This document shows positions 9,848 to 53,670 of a stretch of DNA of 64,000 nucleotides, in pieces. Location: contig OX597814.1 of NCBI GenBank assembly GCA_951406725.2, positions 54,250,001 through 54,314,000 of the forward strand, written 5' to 3'. The notes beneath the pieces are model-generated. The model was not told the DNA's origin, made no database searches, and saw only the letters and a program-made list of their open reading frames with translations. The position numbers and the translations under genes were made by a program. Position 1 is the first letter of the stretch; the number at the start of each line of letters is the position of its first letter. Source of the DNA: Octopus vulgaris. Taxonomy: Eukaryota.

Positions 9848-10583
9848 TATATATATATACATGCATACATGTGTGTATATATATATATATATATACATAC
9901 ATGTGTGTATATATATATATATACATACATATGTGTATATATATATATATACATACATATGTGTGTATATATATATATACATACATATGTGTGTATATAT
10001 ATATATATACATACATATGTGTGTATATATATACACATACATACATATACATATATATACATATGTGTGTATATATATATATATATACATATGTGTGTAT
10101 ATATATACACATACATACATATACATATATATATATATATACACATACATACATATACATATATATATATATACATACATATACATATACATATATATAC
10201 ATACATACATATACATATATATACATACATACATATACATATATATACATACATACATATACATATATATATATACATACATACATATACATATATATAT
10301 ATACATACATACATATACATATATATATATATACATACATACATATACATATATATACATACATACATATACATATATATACATACATACATATACATAT
10401 ATATATATACATACATACATATACATATATATATATATACATACATATATATATATATATATACATACATAATATATATATATATACATACATATATATA
10501 TATATATACATACATATATATATATATACATACATATATATATATATACATACATATATATATATACATACATATATATATAC

Positions 10584-10616
<33 letters not shown>

Positions 10617-10753
10617 CATACATATATATATATATACATACATATATATATATATATATACATATATATATACATACATATATATATACATACATACATA
10701 TATATATACATACATACATATATATATACATACATATATATATATATACATAC

Positions 10754-10788
<35 letters not shown>

Positions 10789-10889
10789 TACATACATATA
10801 CACATACATATATATATATATATACATACATATACACATACATACATATACATACATATATATATATATATACATACATATACATACAT

Positions 10890-10956
<67 letters not shown>

Positions 10957-10999
10957 CATACATATACATATATATATATATATACATACATACATATAC

Positions 11000-11040
<41 letters not shown>

Positions 11041-11069
11041 CATATATATACACATACATACATATACAT

Positions 11070-11108
<39 letters not shown>

Positions 11109-11331
11109 CATATACACATATATATACACATATACATATATATATACATATACATATATATATATATATATATACATACATATACACATACATACATATA
11201 CATATATATGTATATATATACATACATATACACATACATACATACATACATATATATATATATACACATACATATACACATACATACATATACATATATA
11301 TATATATATACATACATATACACATACATAC

Positions 11332-11363
<32 letters not shown>

Positions 11364-11562
11364 ATACATATACACATACATACATACATATACATATATA
11401 TATATATATATATATACATACATATACACATACATACATATACATATATATATATATATACATATATATACATACATATACACATACATACATATACATA
11501 TATATATATATATATACATATATATACATACATATACACATACATACATATACATATATATA

Positions 11563-11596
<34 letters not shown>

Positions 11597-11742
11597 CACA
11601 TACATACATATACATATATATATATATATACATACATATATATATATATATACATACATATACATATATATATATACATACATATACATATATATATATA
11701 TATATATACATACATATATATATACTGTATATATATACATAC

Positions 11743-11793
<51 letters not shown>

Positions 11794-11814
11794 CATACAT
11801 ATACACATACATAC

Positions 11815-11847
<33 letters not shown>

Positions 11848-12390
11848 CATACATATACACATACATACATATACATATACACACATACACACACACACAT
11901 ACATATACACATACATACATATACATATATATATATATATATACATACATATACACATACATACATATACATACATATATATATATATATATATACATAC
12001 ATATACACATACATACATATACATACATATATATATATATATATATACATACATATACACATACATACATATACATACATATACATATATATATATATAT
12101 ATATACACATACATACATATACATATATATATATATATATATACATATATATACATACATATACACATACATACATATACATATATATATATATATACAT
12201 ATATATACATACATATACACATACATACATATACATATATATATATACATATATATATACACATATATATACATACATATACACATACATACATATACAC
12301 ATACATATACATATATATATACATACATATATATATATATATACATACATACATATATATATATACATACATATATATATATATATATAC

Positions 12391-12451
<61 letters not shown>

Positions 12452-12488
12452 CATATATATACATATATATACATACATATATATATAT

Positions 12489-12529
<41 letters not shown>

Positions 12530-12761
12530 CATATATATATATATATATACATACATATATATATACATACGTATATATATATATATACATATATATACAT
12601 ACATATATATATATATACATACATATATATATACATACATATATATATATACATACATATATATATATACATACATATATATATATATATACATACATAT
12701 ATATATATATATACATACATACATATATATATACATACATACATATATATATATACATACA

Positions 12762-12841
<80 letters not shown>

Positions 12842-12860
12842 CATATATATATATACATAC

Positions 12861-12923
<63 letters not shown>

Positions 12924-13024
12924 ATATATATATATACATACATATATATATACATACATATATATATATATATATACATACATATATATATATATACATA
13001 CATATATATATATATATACATACA

Positions 13025-13090
<66 letters not shown>

Positions 13091-13263
13091 CATACATATA
13101 TATATATACATACATATATATATACATACATATATATATATACATACATACATATATATATATACATACATACATATATATATATACATACATACATATA
13201 TATACATACATACATATATATATATACATACATATATATATATACATACATATATATATATAT

Positions 13264-13316
<53 letters not shown>

Positions 13317-13472
13317 CATACATATATATATATATATATACATACATATATATATATATATATACATACATATATATATATATATACATACATATATATA
13401 TATATATATACATACATATATATATATATATATATACATATATATATACATACATACATATATATATATATA
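9848..13472. repeat. ~3.6-kb compound (TA)/(CA)/(TACA) microsatellite array
   Basis: Seen directly; near-perfect purine/pyrimidine alternation. Confidence 0.97.
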
Positions 13473-13695
13473 TTACCCCTCTGCAAAAAGATCTCAGAAT
13501 TTTAATTGATTTGCTTTTCGCAGGAAGGAAAGTTTCTTGTCGAAGATACATCTCGCTTTTATCCTTCGAAACGTAGAGTAGATGAAACCTTAGCGACTGA
13601 AGAAGGGGTTTTTTCGTTGTGTCAATTGTCCTGTACTCCATTTTTTGTTGTTTTTAAAAAAAATGTCCTGTTCCTTTGGTTTGTGTCTATGTGTC

Positions 13696-13743
13696 TACAT
13701 ACATATATATATACATACATACATATATATATACATACATACA

Positions 13744-13775
<32 letters not shown>

Positions 13776-13951
13776 CATATATATATACATACATACATAT
13801 ATACATACATATATATATACATACATACATATATACATACATACATATATACATACATACATACATATATACATACATATACATACATACATACATATAC
13901 ATACATATATATACATACATACATACATACATATATATACATACATACATA

Positions 13952-14006
<55 letters not shown>

Positions 14007-14235
14007 ACATACATACATATATATATATACATACATATATATATACATACATATATATATATATACATACATATATACATACATACATATATACATACAT
14101 ACATACATACATATACATACATATACATACATACATATATACATACATACATACATATATACATACATACATATATACATACATACATATACATACATAC
14201 ATATATATACATACATACATATATACATACATACA

Positions 14236-14271
<36 letters not shown>

Positions 14272-14280
14272 TATATATAT
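13696..14280. repeat. (TACA)/(TA) microsatellite array
   Basis: Seen directly. Confidence 0.95.
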
Positions 14281-14414
14281 CATCATCATCATCATCGTTT
14301 AACGTCCGTTCTCCATGCTAGCATGGGTTGGGCGGTTCGACCGGGGATCTGGAAAGCCAGAAGGCTGCACCAGGCTCCAGTCTTATCTGGCAGTGTTTCT
14401 ACAGCTGGATGCCA
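14279..14414 (-). mobile_element. SINE family C 3' portion with (GAT)n tail
   Basis: Reverse complement of ggcatccagctgtagaaacactgccagat...gttaaacgatgatgatg; also at 17188, 25308, 43925, 51690, 59362. Confidence 0.75.
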
Positions 14415-14442
14415 CATACATATATATATATATATACATATA

Positions 14443-14849
14443 TACTCTTTACTCTTTTACTTGTTTCAGTCATTTGACTGCGGCCATGCTGGAGCACCGC
14501 CTTTAGTCGATCAAATCGACCCCGGAACTTATTCTTTGTAAGCCCAGTACTTATTCTATCGGTCTCTTTTGCCGAACCGCTAAGTGGCGGGGACGTAGAC
14601 ACACCAGCATCGGTTGTCAAGCAATGCTAGGGGGACAAAGACAGACACACAAACACACATATATATATATATATATATATACATATATACGACAGGCTTC
14701 TTTCAGTTTCCGTCTACCAAATCCACTCACAAGGCATTGGTCGGCACGGGGCTATAGCAGAAGACACTTGCCCAAGATGCTACGCAGTGGGACTGAACCC
14801 GCAACCATGTGGTTGGTTAGCAAGCTACTTACCACACAGCCACTCCTGC
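14443..14849 (-). mobile_element. SINE family A, full length (tRNA head, CORE-like segment)
   Basis: A box tggctgtgtgg, B box ggttcagtccc, cttgggcaagtgtctt core-like motif, AAGAGT repeat tail; closely similar to 62741-63168. Confidence 0.9.
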
Positions 14850-14887
14850 ATATATATATACATACATATATATATATATACATATAT

Positions 14888-14920
<33 letters not shown>

Positions 14921-15136
14921 CATATATATACATACATACATACATACATATATATACATATATATACATACATACATACATATATATACATATATATACA
15001 TACATACATACATATATATACATATATATACATACATACATACATACATATATATATATATACATATATATACATACATACATACATACATATATATATA
15101 TATATACATATATATACATACATACATACATACATA

Positions 15137-15168
<32 letters not shown>

Positions 15169-15356
15169 CATACATACATATATATATATATATACATATA
15201 TATACATACATACATACATACATATATATATATACATATATATACATACATACATACATACATATACATATATACGTATGTATACATTCATACATACATA
15301 CATACATATATATACATATATATACATATATACATATATATACATACATACATACA

Positions 15357-15388
<32 letters not shown>

Positions 15389-15481
15389 CATACATATACA
15401 TACATACATACATACATATATATACATACATACATACATATATATATACATACATACATACATATACATATATATACATAC

Positions 15482-15512
<31 letters not shown>

Positions 15513-15731
15513 CATACATACATACATATATATATATATACATATATATACATACATATATACATATATATACATACATATATATATATATATATACATA
15601 TATATACATACATACATATATATATATATACATATATATACATACATACATATACATACATACATATATATATATATACATATATATACATACATACATA
15701 TATATATATATACATATATATACATACATAC

Positions 15732-15762
<31 letters not shown>

Positions 15763-16004
15763 CATATATATACATATATACATATATATATATATATACA
15801 TATATATACATACATACATATATATACATACATGCATACATATAAATACATGCATACATATATATACATGCATACATATATATACATACATACATAAATA
15901 TACATATACATACATACCTATATATACATACCTATATATACATACCTATATATACATACATATATATACATATATATATACATACATATATATATATATA
16001 TACA

Positions 16005-16050
<46 letters not shown>

Positions 16051-16148
16051 CATATATATATATACATATATATATACATACATATATATATATACATATA
16101 TATATACATACATATATATATATACATACATATATATATACATACATA

Positions 16149-16184
<36 letters not shown>

Positions 16185-16528
16185 CATACATATATACAAA
16201 CATATATACAAACATATATACATACAAACATATATACATACATACATATATATATATATACATACATATATACAAACATATATACATACAAACATATATA
16301 CATACATACATATATATATATATACATACATATATATACACACATATATATATATACATACATATATATATATACATATATATATATACATACATATATA
16401 TATATACATACATATATATATACATACATATATATACACATACATATATATACATACATATATATACACATACATATATATACATACATATATATACACA
16501 TACATATATATACATACATATATATACA

Positions 16529-16564
<36 letters not shown>

Positions 16565-16569
16565 CATAC

Positions 16570-16618
<49 letters not shown>

Positions 16619-16720
16619 CATACATATATATATACATACATACATATATATATACATACATATATATATACATACATATATATATACATACATATATATA
16701 TATGTATATATAATATATAC
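14850..16720. repeat. ~1.9-kb (TACA)/(TA) array
   Basis: Seen directly. Confidence 0.95.
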
Positions 16721-17649: not shown

Positions 17650-18320
17650 ACCAAAGATTGGTCCAAGCTATGTCTAACTTAATAGCACAACCTGTTAGTA
17701 TTATCTAAATCCTTTTTAAGTCAAGTTTTGTGGTATCATGGTCCATTCAAGTAGTGAGTTTTTGTTGAGTGAGTTGTATCCAGGTATAGGTGGTTTATCT
17801 GGTATTCCTTGAAGGAATCTATCCAGACTCCGTTTAAAGTTGATGGGATCCTTTTCCTCTTTGATCAGTTTTGGGACAATGTTAAACAGGGCAGGGCCTG
17901 TTGAGGAAAAGAAATTGTGTTGCAGTGTACCTATATGCTGTGGTCCTGAATTGGGCAGGGCACGTATGGCCCATGGTTTCAGCCTTGAATCTTGAAGTGT
18001 TTGGGCAATATTGGTAGTATATTCTCCACATTGCACAAATGATGTACTGCTTGCGGCAGCGCTGGAGAGAGTAGAGTTTCAAGGCTTTAAGGCAGTCCCA
18101 GTAATTGAGATCAGTCATGCCTTTAATTTGTTTAGTGAATGCCCTCTGGGGTGATTCAATTTTCAAGATGTTTTGTTTTGTATGGGGAGACCACAGGGGG
18201 CAGCAGTATTCGAGGTGTGGCTGTACAAAGAAGGAGAAAAGTGGAATGATGACACCTTGTTCTCAGGACTGGAAGGTTCTTAAAATCCAGGAGCTCATCT
18301 TCCACAGTATAGTTTGTTCT
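17650..18320 (-). mobile_element. CR1/Jockey-group LINE 3' end
   Basis: PHLEYCCPLWSP...IESPQRAFTKQIKGMTDLNYWDCLKALKLYSLQR, typical C-terminal region. Confidence 0.85.
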
Positions 18321-22059: not shown

Positions 22060-23433
22060 CTAGCAGTATCGCCCGGCGTTGCTCGGGTTGTAAGGGAAAT
22101 AACTATATAAGCATTTTTAGAGAGTTATAGCCAAAAAGTAGCAAAAAAAATGCATTAAAAATTGAAAAAAAATTAAGGTAAATTTTTCTTTAAATCGTTG
22201 ACACATCGTAGATATTTTTAGAGAGTTACTTCCCTTATATAAAAGCGAAAAAAATGCATTAAAATGGAAAAATATGATGGTAATTTTTTTTTAAATCATA
22301 GACTCATCGTAGACGCGCGCTAATACCCAGAAGGGCTCGTTTGTTATTCTGGGTAACTTTCTGTAAAATTATTAAAATTTTGTTCAAACATCGCTATAGA
22401 AAATGGGTTATTAGCTAATATTCAATTGGGTATACAACAAAATTTTACGATAGAATTTGTTATTCTGGGTAACTTTCTGTAAAATTATTAAAATTTTGTT
22501 CAAACATCGCTATAGAAAATGGGTTATTAGCTAATATTCAATTGGGTATACAACAAAATTTTACGATAGAATTTGTTATTCTGGGTAACTTTCTGTAAAA
22601 TTATTAAAATTTTGTTCAAACATCGCTATAGAAAATGGGTTATTAGCTAATATTCAATTGGGTATACAACAAAATTTTACGATAGAATTTGTTATTCTGG
22701 GTAACTTTCTGTAAAATTATTAAAATTTTGTTCAAACATCGCTATAGAAAATGGGTTATTAGCTAATATTCAATTGGGTATACAACAAAATTTTACGATA
22801 GAATTTGTTATTCTGGGTAACTTTCTGATACCCATAATAATATTTATGGCAAAATAGGCCTTAATTTCATTTAAGGTTGTGGGAAATAACAAACTATCCT
22901 TTCTTTCGGTTTATTTACGTTTAGCGTAATGATTTCAAATAGGCTCATTCGAAAAAGTAAATAGAAATAGTCTAAGGCTTTACTCTTCTGGGAAAGTCTG
23001 TGGCTTGGTCCAGTTTCTTCAGAAAACTCACCGAAAGAAACAGTTTTTTAATTTTCACTCCATTCAGGTACCAATTCGTTTTCTTTATCGCTGTCGGATT
23101 CACTGTTTTCACTTTAATAGCTGCAAACTTGCAAAGACAAAGGAGGAGAAGGGTGATAGCGTCAGTGAAACAATTCGCTCCCTTTGTGTGTGTGTGTGCG
23201 TTTGCGTGTGGTGTAAACCAGACTAAGAAAAGCATTTGACACACACACCAGAATGTGAGTTTTCTGTAAATTTTGCTTAATTGGAGTTTAAATTTTAAAA
23301 ACTGGACCTGGCATGACGCGATGCATTGTACTCTTAAAATTGCTAGGTAAATTGTAATTGAAGAAATCCTATATTGTAGATTTGTATAACTCCCAAAGGG
23401 AGGCAGATAAAATCTGTCTTTTATAATAAGAGA
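22060..23433 (-). mobile_element. Second Helitron copy, head-to-tail with the previous one
   Basis: Same 3' CTAG/hairpin and 5' TCTTATTATAAAAG ends; both arms homologous to 20592-22059. Confidence 0.8.
22340..22827. repeat. Tandem array of about 4.2 x 116 bp
   Basis: ttgttattctgggtaactttc recurs at 22341, 22457, 22573, 22689 and 22805. Confidence 0.95.
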
Positions 23434-23782: not shown

Positions 23783-24515
23783 ACTTATATATATATATAC
23801 AATAGGCTTCCTTCATTTTTTGCTTATCATATCCACTCACAAGGCTTTGGTCAACCTGGGGCTACAGTACAAGATACTTTCCTAAAGTGCCATGCAGTGG
23901 GATTGAACCTGGAACCATGTGGTTGGGAAGGAAACTCCCTACCATACAGCTATACCTGCACCCATGGAATTTTTTTCTTTGTACATGTTTTATCCATGCT
24001 AGCATGGGGTGAGGTTTTGGGAGGTAAAATGGTATCAGATGCATATAATCATGCACATACATATCTCTAACAACTAAGTAAAAAAAAAAAGTTAATTTGT
24101 AGAACATGCCATCAACACCACTAAATTATTTTTTACAGTGCATTATGTAGCTGATATCTCAGAAATATGTAAAACTGTACCAATAATGATACTTAATTAA
24201 ATGTCAGTTCATTTCAAAATAGAAGTATAATTAGAAATGTGTTAACATTAAGATAATTATTATCATCATTATTATTATATTTAGATCCTAGGTAAAAACA
24301 CTTAAGTTCTTAGCTGACTAATTTATGAACACTTTATCATATTATATCGTGAAGTATATTTTCCACCTAAATGTGGTGGACCCACATAGGATGATGCTAC
24401 TGTTGTTTATAGCCCCAGGAAGACATCTCCTCCAGCTGGCTAACGACACACTGTCTCAATCTGATTAATATTTGTGAAGGGAAATCATCATTTCCATCTC
24501 TAGCCTTACGTGATA

Positions 24516-24560
24516 CACACAGATCCAGGTTTCTGGATGGTAACCCGTCATCAGCATGTG
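24516..24560 (-). ncRNA. Type I hammerhead ribozyme (partly decayed copy)
   Basis: CACAUG-CUGAUGA-CGGGU uacc AUCCA-GAAA-CCUGGA-UC-UGUGUG; mismatches in helices II and III. Confidence 0.7.
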
Positions 24561-24873
24561 ACAATCACCAGCTAGTGATGAGAACTCATTTCAAACGCAA
24601 AATACTATATGCTTTTTCCAGTGACAAACTGTCGCTGATCTCAAAAAAGGAGAAACAAGCAATAATAAATCTCTGAGTGAGATATAAACAGTAGTAGCAC
24701 AGAATCGTGAAGTATATTTTCCACCTAAATGTGGTGGACCCATAGGGGATGTTGCTACTGTTGATTATAGCCCCAGGAAGACATCTCCTCCAGCTGGCTA
24801 ACGACACATTGTCTGTGCCTGATTAGTATTTGTGAAGAGAAATCATCATTCCCATCTCTAGCCTTACGTGATA

Positions 24874-24918
24874 CACACAGACCCGGGTTTCTGAGTAGTA
24901 ACCCATCATCAGCATGTG
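24874..24918 (-). ncRNA. Type I hammerhead ribozyme
   Basis: CACAUG-CUGAUGA-UGGGU uacu ACUCA-GAAA-CCCGGG-UC-UGUGUG: complete core, 5-bp helix II, palindromic helix III ACCCGGGU, GUC site. Confidence 0.85.
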
Positions 24919-26099
24919 GCAGGGGCTATAAACAACAGAAGCATCGTCCCCTATGGGTCTGCCACATTTAGGTGGAAAGTATACTTCATGATTCTGTGCT
25001 GCTACTGCTCACATCTCGCTCAGAGATTTATTATTGCTTATCATATAGTTATCTGGAAACGAAATATTTGATCACATTAACAACTTTGAACTATATTAAC
25101 TGCCATGTCTTTGTCATGCCAATTATATACATATATGTAAATGTGTGTGTGAGTGAATTTATGCATGGGTGTATGTATGTGTATGTGCATGCACAGCAGA
25201 GTTCAAGGTCAATCTTTGCCAAGCAACTTCACTCTGCATGCTTTAGCTTCATTACTATGGCAACAGTCTGGATACTTATTGATCAGACCTTGTATATCTA
25301 TCTATCTATCATCATCATTTAACATCCGCTTTCCATGTTGGCATGAGTTAGACAGTTTGACTGAGGACAGGCAAGCCAGAAGGCTGCACCAGGCTCCAAT
25401 CTGATCTGGCAAAGTTTCTACAGCTGGATGCCCTTCCTAACTTTATTAAAAGCAGCAGAAATATCACAAAAACTGTTACTCAGAGCTTCACGTTCCCATT
25501 TGTTGGACAGTTTTGTTAGAATAAAGCATATTACTCTACCACTGATATTTGAGTACTCTTTTTCCCACCTTGTTTCACATTTATGTGCTTACTCCAGTAT
25601 ATATATCAATATATCAGATGAAATGGCTTCGCATTTGATGAAACTTACAGCCAGTTTTGGCTTAGACTGAATGAATTATGGTGTGTGTGTGTGTATGTTG
25701 TCTATATTTATTGCTACTGCTTTTTGGGATGAGCAATATTATCACTTACAGCCCATTAACATACATGTATACATACAATTAAATTAAATTAAAAACATTA
25801 TCCATGCTTGATAACATCATGAAAAGTAAAATTATCTTGGTTATATAAAAACTGAATAAGATCAAGTCAACATCGTAAACAGATTTATTGTTCTCATAAT
25901 TGACCTCTTCTACTCCACTGTGAAAATAAAACACATTGGTTGTATAAAAATTAGACAGATATTCTGAAAATAGAGAACTAGAAGCATTGATATATATATA
26001 TATATATAAAGGGAAAGTTTACGAAAATAAACAAAAGACGAAGGCAGGTGGAGTACAAACAAACAAATGTATTAGTATAGCGCTCAGGAATAGAAAAGG

Positions 26100-43135: not shown

Positions 43136-43924
<789 letters not shown>

Positions 43925-44069
43925 GGAGTGGTTGGCGTTAGGAAGGGCATCCAGCTGTAGAAACACTGCCAGATCAGACTGGAGCCTGGGGCAGTCCCTG
44001 CTCCCCAGACCCCGGTCAAACTGTCCAACCCGTGCTAGCGCGGAAAACGGACGTTAAACGATGATGATG

Positions 44070-44070
<1 letters not shown>
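43925..44070 (+). mobile_element. SINE family C 3' portion
   Basis: Homologous to 17188-17333. Confidence 0.8.
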
Positions 44071-45975
<1,905 letters not shown>

Positions 45976-47021: not shown

Positions 47022-47038
47022 TATATATACATATTCAA

Positions 47039-47078
<40 letters not shown>

Positions 47079-47243
47079 CATAAGGGACTAAAGCCATCTG
47101 AATATGGCTAGGGACAGGGCAGGGTGGTGGGGGTGTTACTGTTGCATTTAGCCCCAGGCGAACATCAACGTCCCCAGATAGGCTTGACACCATCACGGCG
47201 TCCTCTATCCTGCAAAGGGAGATAATTCCCCGATGAAGCGGAA

Positions 47244-47295
47244 ACCACACACGGACCTAGGTTTCAAGGTGTATTGCCTATTATCAACGTGTGGT
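47244..47295 (-). ncRNA. Type I hammerhead, U3-A8 core variant (inverted copy)
   Basis: Reverse complement of 47461-47512. Confidence 0.7.
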
Positions 47296-47460
47296 AGGCA
47301 CCCGCTTCCCCGACGAACAACTCACTCTGCAGGATATTTCTCATTTAGAGAATTATTATTGCTGTCGAACAGATTTTCGAAATCAGCAAATGTATTTTGC
47401 TTGAAAATCTATATATAAATATCCTGCTGAGTGAGTTGTTCGTCGGGGAAGCGGGTGCCT

Positions 47461-47512
47461 ACCACACGTTGATAATAGGCAATACACCTTGAAACCTAGG
47501 TCCGTGTGTGGT
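47461..47512 (+). ncRNA. Type I hammerhead, U3-A8 core variant
   Basis: CACACG-UUGAUAA-UAGG caauaca CCUU-GAAA-CCUAGG-UC-CGUGUG; palindromic helix III ACCUAGGU; helix I extends with GAAGCGG/CCGCUUC. Confidence 0.75.
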
Positions 47513-47715
47513 TTCCGCTTCATCGGGGAATTATCTCCCTTTGCAGGATAGAGGACGCTGTGATGGTGTCAAGCCTATCTGGCGACGTTGATGTTCGCCT
47601 GGGGCTAAATGCAACAGTAACACCCCCACCACCCTGCCCTGTCCCTAGCCATATTCAGATGGCTTTAGTCCCTTATGTTATGGAGCAGTTACTGTCTATA
47701 TCTCATTTAGAGAAT

Positions 47716-47753
<38 letters not shown>

Positions 47754-48099: not shown

Positions 48100-48486
48100 A
48101 TATTGGTTTCTTATCTAAGCACAAGGTCTGTGATTTTGAGTGGAAGTGGGTTATTTGATTACATTGACTCCAGACTTTGACTGGTACTTTATTTTATCGA
48201 CTCTGAAAGGATAGAAGGCAAATCTGACCTTGACTGGATTTGACCTCAATGCTTAAAGAACTGCAACAAATATTGGTTTCAAATTTTGTAACAAGGCCAG
48301 CAATTTAGGAGGAAGGGTAAGTTGATTATATCAACACCAGTGCTCAACTGGTACTCATTTTATCAACCTCGAAAGGACGAAAGGCAAAGTCGACAGTAGT
48401 AGGATTTGAACTCAGAATGTAAAGATGGACGAAATGCCACTAAGCATTTTGCCCAGCATACTAACAATTCTGCCAGCTCACCACCT
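48100..48486 (-). mobile_element. Two SINE family B copies
   Basis: Reverse-complement homology to 3464-3700 and 4458-4670. Confidence 0.7.
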
Positions 48487-51400
48487 TAGAACCACCACAA
48501 ATATTGGAAAGCATTTTCTACAAATGCTCTAACATTTCTGCCAGCTCAATGCTCATACTTCTTATAACAATGAAGAACTGCTACACACACACTGCTACAA
48601 GGAGTTATGTATCATGGCCATGAACAAAGCACGATTCTATTAATGGGACTTCTCCAAATATTTGATTGACCAAGATTAGTACAACTTTATTCAGTGGAAC
48701 ACCTGAATCATTATCATCAGTCTTACTGTTGTTATCAAGCTCTGGTTCTGATTCAGCTTGTACATGATGGTTAGTGTGCAACAGCCAAATTCACATCCAG
48801 TTTTCAGTATACACACAAACTTACTCAACATTCACCACCATGCAAATATCTTCCCCAGCTACAAGAACTCCTTACTAAAAGAGAAGCCTTGTGCTTTGGC
48901 AATAGATGTCACTATTCTATTGCCCAAGCATTATTCTGTTTAATTAATTCCAAGCCAGAACTCTTCTTATAATTGAGATTTTATTTATCTATATTTTTTT
49001 TTTTCTGTAGAGTAAGCTTCACTTCTTATCTAGTAAACATCAATTTCTCTAGCAAGTTAGTTTCCCCACTTCCACTTAATACAGAGGCAGAAAGAACCTT
49101 TACTTTCTCGCACATACTTTTGTTCCAGCAGAAACTATTTTTAGCATAGACGTTTATTATAATTACAGTCTTATGTCATTCATGACACCAAATGTTTTTA
49201 CTATTTTATGCTTTAGGGTGGCCTTCCTGACAGACATTTTTCATTTCTGACATACACTGTGACAGTTTTACTATTTTAAACCAGAAAAGCATGAATTTTT
49301 CAGCTAAAGTTCCAGACTAGAAACCAGATGTGTATTTTCTTTTCTTTATTCTTTTATTTTCTTTTTTGTTGTGGTGGCAGGGTGTGCAGGGGTATGGGAG
49401 TTTTGTTTTCTTAAAACTAGTTTACTCATGGTTATGAGGATATCCATGCAGCTAAACAATGAAGTTGGAGAATATCTGTGTAGCTGTTGAATAGATACAA
49501 AGCATTACAGTAAACTTCAGGCTTTCATATTAAACATGTAGCTGGAAAACACTTATGTAACTATAGGATAACCATATAACTGAAAAATAGACACAATGTG
49601 GTCATATCTATGTGGGCACATAGTCTGCAAAAAATAATAGCCAAATCTCCTACTCTCAAACCACTTTCTACTATTTTAAAAATGGGAAGGACAACATAAA
49701 GTAATCTAGTGTTTGCTATTCCTATGAAAAAAATAAAAATAAGCAGGGATGGTCAGACTGGAATATTTTTAATCCTAAGTCAATGCAGGCAGAGCCAGTT
49801 TGGGATTAAACAACAACATAGATATACATCTATTAAATGTTGGAATTTGGAACCCCTTCAACAAAATAAATTTACAACCAATGTAACAAATAAAAAAAAG
49901 AGTTTTGACAATTTATCCAAATAAAAAATCTGCTTTATCATTGGCTAACTTTCACAACTTCATAAGATGCTATATGAAGTCCTTTTCCTGCCAACCCTCC
50001 TGAGACCACCTCTGGTTATATGACAGAAAATCTCTAATTTTAAAGGGCTTATATTTGAATTAAAACATTCAATCAAAATCTTATGCAAGAAAATTTGAAG
50101 TTATGTTTCAAACATCAATGTAACAATAAGGAAAAAATTATTTTATTAAATCCCACAAAACTCTTATTTTTCAGAATTGACTGAAACACATAGGCAATAT
50201 ACAAAATTAGAAATATGTTGACAAATGAGTTAATATAACTAGTAAGATATACTTTTTCCATCAACTGGTTAATACTATGAGTAGGATTATCAACTTAGAA
50301 CTGATTCTCCTGCTTAACAAAAATACTTTCAATACTTTTCCATCCAATGTTTAAGAAGCACATACACAACAACAACAACAAAAACATACCTACTCTGGTG
50401 TTCCTGTATCATGCAATGTTTTTAAGACAGTCAGACAGAGCACTCAAGTGGGTTTATTTCAGTAGTTAGTCTGATTTCTATATTTTTTTAATTTATTCCA
50501 GTACCTATTAGCAGTCTACTAATCTCTTTCTACTATCAGTTGCCAGTTTGTTTTTGGACACCCTTTTTTCAACTTACCTTTGGGGTAACTAAAAATATAC
50601 GTCTTAGTTTTATCTAGCAAAGATAAATTTTAAAATCTACAAAATGTTACACATAATTAAAAAAAATTAACACATGAAAATTACAACATAACCAAGTTGT
50701 TGTTGTTAGTGGTGTTGTTTTTTATATAGTCCAGGTCAATTCTGATCGACCACACAGGCAATTAGCCAAACCAAGTTTGGCCTACAGATCTGTTCTAGTT
50801 ATATCACATAGCACCATGTCTCCACCTGGTGAAGAACCATACTTCACACTCCAGCATACAGTTATGAATCAAACAGGGTGCAGTGTGACAGTCCACAAAT
50901 ATTACATCCTCTCACCTGTTCAGTTTGTTCCCGTATGCCTATTGTTATTTAGTCTCAGATCAGCCCTGATCAAAAGCATTCCAGCCATAACCATCCTGTC
51001 TTTATTCAGATAGTGTATCTAGGGATACATTTATTCAATCTGTTCTTCCCTTTTCCTTAACAGTAGGATATGGTTTGGAGGAGAGTTGGCTGCCACTTCT
51101 AGAAGGTTGAGCATTTACACAGAGATTCCTTTGTTGGCTTTGTAGAAGCTCTCAAGTGAGTTCTATAGGCTTGTAAATTCTGAAGTTGACTACAGCAAAA
51201 GTAGGGAAGGGGGACTTGATCAGAGTGTTCCTCAGAACTTATTACTTAGCAGTGTGTATTCTAGAAGTGATTAGAGACTTGTCTGGTTTCAATGCTACAG
51301 ATGTACGTTGTTAATACATTGTGACCTGTTAATATCCAGGATCTACATGAGCCTACATTTCTAAGACTACGCAGAGTGCTATAGATAAGAAATACATCAT

Positions 51401-52881: not shown

Positions 52882-53395
52882 TAGGGTGTAACAGGTAAAT
52901 TGGGGCAAGTTTCAAATGGGTATATTTCTAATTGTATAGATTTTGTTGGAGTCTAAATTTTAAATATTACCAGTTTGAATAATCACTTGTACTATTTTAT
53001 ATTTCAGATTGAACAAACTGTGAATATTAATAAAGGATTAAACCATAGAAGTGTTACTGCCGAATTATTCCGTGCTGGCAAAAGTGCTGGGGAGAGTGTT
53101 AGAGCCACAAAGTATGCCAAATCTACTGCTTTTAGAGTTGTGACCAATTTGAAGAAAAGTCAGGATGTTCAGAGAAAGCCTCACAGTACTCGTTGTGACC
53201 AAAAACACATACTCTGCTTCTTAATAGGACTTGAAAGATCGATTAAGTTGAACCAATCAAAGTCAATGGCAAAGTTGGCTCAAGATCGAGGAATGAGTAA
53301 AATGACTGTTTCTAGGGCTGTTAGACAAGAGCTCCGTAGGAAATCATATGTGAGAAGACACTGTAACATCTTAACTACTTGCTCCAAAGCCATTC
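52882..53395 (+). mobile_element. Tc1/mariner 5' end with HTH region of transposase
   Basis: TA-tagggtgtaacaggtaaatt TIR; ORF 52975-53406 ...SMAKLAQDRGMSKMTVSRAVRQEL...KSY. Confidence 0.75.
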
Positions 53396-53670
53396 AGTGG
53401 AACTGAGCCTGGAACCATGTGGTTGGGAAGCAAGCTTCTTACCATATAGCCATGCCTGTGTCTATTAGTTAGGTTAAGTTTCTTAACTGTGGACAATAAC
53501 CATTAGTTCTTTGTCTTGTAGGCCAAAATTCTTTCAACTAAACTTTCTGAAATAATGATTGAATAGGTTGTAGTACATATTGGCCACAGAACAGCTTCAT
53601 TATCAGGCATTTGGGATGATGTGAAAATTCGAAGTCTCCAAATAACCAATGTTTAATTCCAATTTCATAG

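What the first reader, a model, noticed from the sequence alone, without database searches (positions are those of the whole stretch)
47339..47720. Circularly permuted 362-nt monomer, a second subfamily of the retrozyme
Seen: the unit starts and ends with the same 20-mer, with the HHR in the middle rather than at the ends. It shares blocks with the 24-kb unit (actgt(c/t)tatatctca(t/c)t(t/c)agaga(a/t)ttattattgc; actgttg...tagccccagg...acatc) and a similar length (362 versus 358) despite divergence elsewhere. Helices I and III covary (CCCGGG versus CCUAGG). Inference: reverse transcription slightly more than once around a circular or multimeric RNA; the conserved blocks may be promoter or RT-recognition signals.
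Basis: partly seen in the sequence, partly recalled or inferred. Interest (0 to 1): 0.75.

Follow-up and report, generated by a model that had tools for sequence, protein, structure and literature searches.

The report
Two-armed hammerhead retrozyme, Penelope-type insertion
This is one young copy of a scattered, protein-less jumping repeat that carries a predicted self-cutting RNA motif, a known kind of element; it is not a shuffled version of its relative nearby, and its many copies start at two fixed points, which suggests that a Penelope-type enzyme likely copied one small RNA, probably a circle, from both ends of a DNA cut.

Summary
In 51 genomic insertions, 81 of 84 outer ends fall at two fixed sites 43 nt apart, 74 of those 81 abut (TA)n, inner ends are scattered, and 30 of 33 two-armed insertions pair one long with one short end (never long-long or short-short). 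That is the published Penelope-like-element (PLE) footprint: tail, partial tandems, inverted 5' copy. The 20-mer is a 5'-truncated tandem remnant; the 24-kb family has the same register, so 'circularly permuted' fails. 'Second subfamily' holds: four collinear families (66-76% identical) covary in HHR core (C3-G8/U3-A8), helix III palindrome and several stems. More-than-unit copying of one monomer is supported: lineage markers are uniform within insertions (36 of 36 at core position 8), no pile-up at the HHR cut. A circle is likely but unproven; cleavage is untested; the partner PLE is unidentified. New member of metazoan non-LTR retrozymes. The scan reported the same architecture before on other DNA of this genome.

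The parts
47022..47074 (.). (TA)n microsatellite, left target flank
   Evidence: (47022-47077)
47075..47339 (-).
   Evidence: 262 of 265 identical to 47417-47681
47246..47293 (-). Second copy of the type I hammerhead (U3-A8 core), predicted cut between 47254 and 47253
47339..47362 (+).
47363..47721 (+). Full family-A unit in the family register (positions 1-359); ends 3 nt short of the commonest long end
47375..47408 (+). 5' hairpin, kept with compensatory changes in all four families
   Evidence: helices 1-2
47463..47508 (+). Type I hammerhead: helix I 47463-68/47503-08, core UUGAUAA 47469-75 (U3-A8), helix II 47477-79/47487-89 with U-U at its base, GAAA 47491-94, 2-bp helix III with palindromic CUAG loop, predicted cut 47502/47503
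   Evidence: Rfam gives no hammerhead hit
47598..47621 (+). Invariant CCTGGGGCT block and ACAGTAAC, the 5' strand of the stem that encloses the short 3' end
   Evidence: helix 9
47682..47721 (+). PLE-type tail between the two fixed 3' ends: GTTACTGT (47688-95, 3' strand of the stem), hairpin TCTC/GAGA (47701-13), TTATTAT
   Evidence: tail definition from PMC11167929
47722..47746 (.). (TA)n microsatellite, right target flank
24346..25037 (.). Family-B insertion with the same architecture: short-end arm of 1.6 units with two C3-G8 hammerheads on the minus strand (24346-24921) and a long-end arm on the plus strand (24922-25037)

Best explanation
It is a young, two-armed insertion of a non-coding 362-nt repeat with a predicted type I hammerhead ribozyme (a non-LTR retrozyme), likely written into a (TA)n target by the reverse transcriptase-endonuclease of a Penelope-like element. 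Shown: fixed outer ends at two sites 43 nt apart, scattered inner ends, head-to-head arms, (TA)n targets, uniform lineage markers within insertions, covarying RNA stems. Inferred: the enzyme cuts both strands, each 3' end primes copying of the same RNA internally, one at the long site and one at the short site; the two cDNAs stop at random and join head to head, often by microhomology. Inferred, less sure (about 0.55-0.6): the template is a monomeric circle made from loci with two same-strand HHRs (16 of 51) by dimeric self-cleavage and ligation, so the enzyme can run past one unit; here it ran 383 nt on one strand and 265 nt on the other. The conserved blocks are likely RNA stems that position the two starts.
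For: Ends: 43 long (357-362) and 38 short (313-320) of 84 arms; 30 of 33 two-armed insertions are long+short, none long+long or short+short; family B 9 long+short, none of like pairs, in 30 loci; families C and D show two ends about 42-43 apart in the hit tables. Arm junctions: 17 overlap, 7 blunt, 9 with extra letters of 33; one 12-bp target duplication (L099). Literature: tail equals the stretch between two RT start sites and both strands are cut and extended in vitro (PMC11167929); partial tandems, inverted 5' copy, tail at one end (PMC8557442; PMC3846280). Two intact RT+GIY-YIG families in this genome (781-aa and 775-aa frames) end at two sites about 36 and 32 nt apart before (TA)n. Monomer template: 112 of 121 lineage-marker sites shared by all overlapping segments, 36 of 36 multi-HHR insertions uniform at core position 8, 7 variants private to one insertion yet present in all its overlapping segments; 5' ends not enriched at the HHR cut (4 of 84 within 5 nt, p 0.25); cut-site junction intact in 89 of 96 copies, 9 of 590 versus 379 of 35335 mismatches. 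RNA-level selection: 11 of 42 pairs change on both sides, 0 of 500 shuffles reach the score, slid controls far lower; helix III stays self-complementary as CCUAGG, CCAUGG, CCCGGG, CUGCAG, CUCGAG. Closed 343-nt loop contigs in runs X1 and X15, which lack the unique flank.
Against: Self-cleavage and circles are not shown. Core, helix II and helix III are weak variants; 47 of 96 family-A HHRs have an unmatched U3-G8 core and still spread; 8 of 9 predicted Xenopus retrozymes did not cleave in vitro and HHR mutants did not affect insertion in the anole system. No sequence link to an autonomous element: no retrozyme block in the PLE termini examined, and their tails are shorter (32-36 versus 43-45 nt). 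The loop contigs come from runs whose RNA status is a guess, at depth 5-12, carry a 19-nt deletion absent from 151 fetched copies, and would look the same for a tandem transcript. Loci were the best-scoring 40 of about 1043 and 40 of 805 candidates, which favours full-length arms; 'private' means private among 51. Only four lineages carry the covariation.
Confidence: 0.82

Rival explanations
1. Same PLE machinery, but the template is an uncleaved linear multimer read through from a tandem locus; no circle exists and the hammerhead is dispensable for insertion.
For: [quoted passage not shown]
Against: A mutation in one unit of a source array should be inherited in one unit only, yet markers are uniform across units and arms; repeated 5' truncation should shorten arrays over generations; palindromic helix III is kept by double changes.
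Confidence: 0.25
2. Cleaved linear monomers are copied with template jumps from 5' end to 3' end, giving tandems without a circle.
For: Uniform markers would also result if the enzyme re-uses one molecule; PLE RTs are related to telomerase (PMC8557442).
Against: No pile-up of 5' ends at the cut (4 of 84) and no scars at the cut junction.
Confidence: 0.1
3. One reading: a permuted monomer from one pass plus 20 nt round a circle, with start points that differ between subfamilies.
For: The sense arm is 1.06 units with the HHR inside.
Against: All four families are collinear with homologous ends; start points are fixed, stop points scattered; the inverted arm is unexplained.
Confidence: 0.04
4. 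A DNA-level repeat (MITE-like palindrome or minisatellite spread by recombination), hammerhead by chance.
For: The locus is a long palindrome; Rfam finds no ribozyme.
Against: Unequal arms, polar 5' truncation, dispersed (TA)n targets, compensatory changes in the tertiary 3-8 pair and in single-strand stems.
Confidence: 0.03

Closest known systems
Metazoan non-LTR retrozymes (Cervera and de la Pena 2020, PMC7229834; parts 2-4 of 6 of the text read)
   Same: Non-coding 350-390-nt tandem units as in mussel, GC under 50%, type I HHR with short helix III and palindromic tetraloop, U-U at the base of helix II as in axolotl HHR_Amex2, circle-and-PLE model proposed there.
   Different: Mostly 1-3 units with an inverted arm and two fixed 3' ends, not described in the parts read; U3-A8 or U3-G8 core; circles not shown here.
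EN+ Penelope-like elements: Poseidon of the anole (PMC11167929, parts 1-2 of 4 read), Adineta Pen2a (PMC3846280, passages), general PLE structure (PMC8557442, passages)
   Same: Partial tandems, inverted 5'-truncated copy, optional tail at one end, AT-rich or (TA)n targets, HHR inside the repeat.
   Different: No ORF (longest Met-start frame 67 aa); tail 43-45 nt rather than 30-40; canonical-size HHR rather than minimal HHR.
Retrozymes as non-autonomous PLE derivatives (Li, Clavereau, Pollet 2026, 10.64898/2026.07.22.740005; parts 1-3 of 5 read)
   Same: Co-occurrence with PLEs; monomers, dimers and multimers.
   Different: There the link is homology to pLTRs and tandem growth is put down to local amplification; here no pLTR homology was found and the link is the insertion footprint.
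PLE hammerheads with U3-A8 core (PMC4209133, parts 1-2 of 4 read; PMC3088659, passages)
   Same: U3-A8 covariation is a known natural, active variant; more-than-unit copying of a circle was proposed in 2014.
   Different: Here C3-G8, U3-A8 and U3-G8 all occur as amplified lineages of one superfamily.

Membership tests
Metazoan non-LTR retrozyme | Small (150-450 bp) non-coding repeat unit in tandem and dispersed copies | tested here: met
   362-nt period, 51 insertions, longest frame 67 aa
Metazoan non-LTR retrozyme | Type I hammerhead in each unit | tested here: met
   Motif and covariation; by pattern, not by Rfam (negative)
Metazoan non-LTR retrozyme | No LTR, PBS or PPT; target duplication longer than 4 bp when present | tested here: inconclusive
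   No LTR structure; one 12-bp duplication (L099), the rest hidden in (TA)n; PBS/PPT not searched
Metazoan non-LTR retrozyme | Self-cleavage of the transcript | not testable with these tools
   No raw reads served; needs an in vitro assay
Metazoan non-LTR retrozyme | Expressed as a structured circular RNA | tested here: inconclusive
   Circular fold z -3.4 (window), -2.8 to -5.8 (others); closed 343-nt loop contigs in 2 of 6 different runs laid, RNA status guessed
Metazoan non-LTR retrozyme | Two same-strand HHRs at an active locus | tested here: not met
   Not met by this copy (one per strand); met by 16 of 51 family insertions
PLE-mobilised non-autonomous element | Two fixed 3' ends separated by a tail | tested here: met
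   81 of 84 arms
PLE-mobilised non-autonomous element | 5' truncation, partial tandems, inverted 5' copy | tested here: met
   33 of 51 two-armed
PLE-mobilised non-autonomous element | AT-rich or microsatellite targets | tested here: met
   74 of 81 fixed ends abut (TA)3 or more (hand count)
PLE-mobilised non-autonomous element | 3' sequence shared with an autonomous partner | tested here: inconclusive
   No shared block in 30+16+20 PLE loci; only part of the genome's PLE families was examined
Autonomous PLE | RT and GIY-YIG ORF | tested here: not met
   None in the element or the window

The most novel reading that the evidence does not exclude
These insertions are genomic records of two-ended rolling-circle reverse transcription: both cut strands prime on one hammerhead-made circular RNA at two fixed sites, one each, and changes in that RNA (including A-to-G edits, perhaps the U3-A8 to U3-G8 core change) are written into every unit of the new insertion and found new lineages.
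Probability: 0.4. Interest if true: 0.62.

Novelty: new member of a known kind. Interest (0 to 1): 0.36.

Why it matters
How retrozyme RNAs return to the genome has been inferred, not shown, and how PLEs make their tandem-plus-inverted insertions is open. A 362-nt, ORF-less, recently active template with two mapped start sites, a strict long+short pairing rule and active RT-GIY-YIG families in the same genome makes both questions testable in vitro with a circular versus a linear template. As a find it is modest: the element class, the PLE footprint, the U3-A8 core and the circle model are all in print, and the scan has noted the same architecture in other families of this genome.

Tried and rejected
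Rfam: no hit at gathering score in the window, no hammerhead to E 10 in either element. Error of mine: the family-B 'unit' included 95 nt of the inverted arm; its fold (z -18) and that architecture table are artefacts, redone (z -3.2). Autonomous partner: GIY-YIG search gave mostly a 781-aa family and several others; no shared block with the retrozyme; blast hits in those loci were read as separate retrozyme insertions in the flanks. Promoter: no Pol III B box in any of four families, A box once on a minus strand, TATA-like run at unit position 48 only in family A. Expression: no RNA holder listed on record; only contigs could be laid, so no starts, ends, strand or level. Order of U3-A8 and U3-G8 in family A is unresolved: the tree puts U3-G8 basal on a long root branch, but lower divergence of U3-G8 copies (0.53% versus 0.72%) and outgroup letters point the other way. 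Pile-up of 5' ends at the HHR cut: tested, absent. Literature searches found no paper on cephalopod retrozymes or on a long+short rule in retrozymes; the library lacks most subscription papers, and supplements of PMC7229834, PMC11167929 and the 2026 preprint, which I did not see, may hold such cases. Dropped rows: duplicate loci of one insertion and L015/L024 (copy of the L011 segment); three TSD candidates reduced to one after excluding (TA)n.

Full report
1. Observation. The 20-mer is real (21 nt exact at 47339 and 47701, period 362). A type I hammerhead lies mid-unit on the plus strand: helix I CACACG/CGUGUG, core UUGAUAA, helix II AGG/CCU, GAAA, a 2-bp helix III with a CUAG loop, predicted cut after C47502. 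Rfam does not detect it. The shared blocks with the 24-kb unit are real.

2. The family. The genome G000 (2.8 Gb, 227 contigs; an octopod cephalopod is my inference from size and make-up, and an earlier scan note says cephalopod) gave about 1043 candidates, 40 scored, at 96-99% identity over the full query. With a second, 71-nt query and extra stretches I held 51 independent insertions. Numbering the unit so that the commonest end is 362, the HHR cut is at 140/141. Of 84 arms, 43 end at 357-362 (33 exactly at 362) and 38 at 313-320 (30 exactly at 319); 3 end elsewhere. Inner ends are spread over the whole unit, with no excess at the cut (4 of 84, p 0.25). Of 33 two-armed insertions 30 have one long and one short end and none has two alike; 18 are single-armed (12 long, 6 short). 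74 of the 81 fixed ends abut (TA)n (hand count). Arm junctions overlap in 17, are blunt in 7 and have extra letters in 9. The window copy is therefore short arm (265 nt) plus long arm (383 nt); the first 20-mer is a truncated next unit. Sampling favours complete arms, so arm lengths are biased upward.

3. Subfamilies. Besides A (this finding) and B (24 kb) I found C and D (4031, 4687 and 3088 candidates for B, C, D, overlapping and not copy numbers). They are 66-76% identical and collinear in one register, with homologous long and short ends. The 24-kb insertion is short arm 1.6 units plus long arm 116 nt; its HHR is near an end only because that arm stops at position 96. So 'second subfamily' is right and 'circularly permuted' is wrong.

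4. RNA structure. On 16 aligned rows, 95.7% of cells pair, 11 of 42 pairs change on both sides, no shuffle of 500 reaches this, and slid controls fall to 31-44% paired; the rows come from only four lineages and the structure was drawn from one of them, so this is not a probability. The 3-8 core pair is C-G in B (25 of 26) and D (52 of 52), U-A in C (21 of 21), and in A U-A in 45, U-G in 47, unread in 4 of 96. U3-A8 is a known active covariant (PMC3088659 passages; PMC4209133). Helix III loops stay self-complementary in A (84 of 92 strict, 90 with G-U), C (21 of 21 with G-U) and D (51 of 52), less so in the old family B (13 of 26); the 10-mers form dimers at -11 to -16 kcal/mol and nothing alone, as expected for ribozymes that cut as dimers. 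Circular folds have z -2.8 to -5.8.

5. Mechanism. The footprint matches PLEs: partial tandems, inverted 5' copy and a tail at one end (PMC8557442; PMC3846280); in vitro a PLE protein cuts and extends both strands at AT-rich DNA and starts internally at two sites that bound the tail (PMC11167929). This genome holds intact RT+GIY-YIG frames of 781 aa and 775 aa, the latter with 75 further copies identical over the query; both end at two sites before (TA)n, and both two-armed 775-aa insertions seen are long+short. The label Neptune for these is recalled from the Zn-finger position. No sequence link to the retrozyme was found, so the partner is inferred by footprint only.

6. Was the template a circle? 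Segments within an insertion differ by about 1.1% (tandem 118 of 10400, between arms 147 of 14084) against 2.3% between insertions. Lineage markers are shared by all overlapping segments at 112 of 121 sites; the 9 exceptions are single sites, one insertion has two. Core position 8 is uniform in 36 of 36 insertions with several HHRs. Seven variants seen in one insertion only are in all its overlapping segments, one in three tandem units plus the inverted arm; 4 of 7 are A-to-G against 8 of 113 unshared (Fisher p 0.002, small n), a test suggested by note e1-8662707. The window's two arms share G84 (3 carriers) and T94. The cut junction shows no scars. This favours one monomer copied repeatedly; a circle explains it most simply and was proposed in print (PMC4209133; PMC7229834). 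Against: cleavage is untested, weak cores spread, and uniform multimers or unsampled lineages could mimic the pattern. Runs X1 and X15 (two studies) assemble a closed 343-nt loop (373-nt contig, 30-nt terminal overlap) of a U3-G8 variant and lack the unique flank that run X17 covers at 36-50x; X2, X5, X6 and X17 show no such loop among the pieces listed, RNA status is a guess, depth is low, and a tandem transcript looks the same. This locus cannot itself yield a monomer, and read-through would form a 265-bp hairpin; 16 of 51 insertions have two same-strand HHRs.

7. Novelty. A new member of metazoan non-LTR retrozymes that works like a non-autonomous PLE. Five searches found no cephalopod report or long+short rule for retrozymes. 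The scan itself noted the same architecture in several 359-495-nt families of this genome; nothing was filed near this place or by sequence. Those notes are not independent support; my reading was fixed. Scores: interest 0.36; PLE-type mobilisation 0.82; circular template about 0.55-0.6.

Noticed in passing
G000, loci L140-L147 (e.g. L143:768-4468): Abundant PLE family with an intact 781-aa RT+GIY-YIG frame preceded by an overlapping frame of up to 479 aa with no Pfam match; about 1-kb repeat with TGATGACGTC/CCAAT-like motif repeats, a minimal U3-A8 hammerhead and a 36-nt tail.
   Followed up: partly
G000, loci L196-L215: Very young PLE family (775-aa frame; 75 further copies identical over 573 aa), two 3' ends about 32 nt apart, no hammerhead found by pattern in its 3' repeat.
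   Followed up: partly
L176-L195 (family D), L157-L175 (family C): Two more retrozyme families: D is 99-100% identical with arrays of 5 or more units; C has an array of about 10 units at C4:13.62 Mb. One D copy abuts a B copy (L059).
   Followed up: partly
family A core position 8 (window 47474): About half of family A carries U3-G8, an unmatched core pair, yet amplified and looks younger than U3-A8; may be a fixed A-to-G change.
   Followed up: partly
runs X1, X15 on window 47546-47564: The loop contig has a 19-nt deletion not present in 151 fetched genomic copies.
   Followed up: partly
window 48100-48500: Short repeat of very high depth in both DNA-like and RNA-like runs (SINE-like).
   Followed up: no
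window 9848-16719 and 43138-45974: Very long degenerate (TA)/(TACA) arrays with strong strand skew.
   Followed up: no
window 22340-22827: Perfect 116-bp tandem repeat, 4.2 copies, 100% identical.
   Followed up: no
window 17716-18262 (minus) and 52957-53406 (plus): Short frames that look like a LINE RT C-terminal remnant and a Tc1/mariner-like transposase remnant (resemblance recalled, not searched).
   Followed up: no
L011 and L015 (C30, about 11 kb apart): The same insertion with the same flanks twice: a segmental tandem duplication or assembly duplicate.
   Followed up: no
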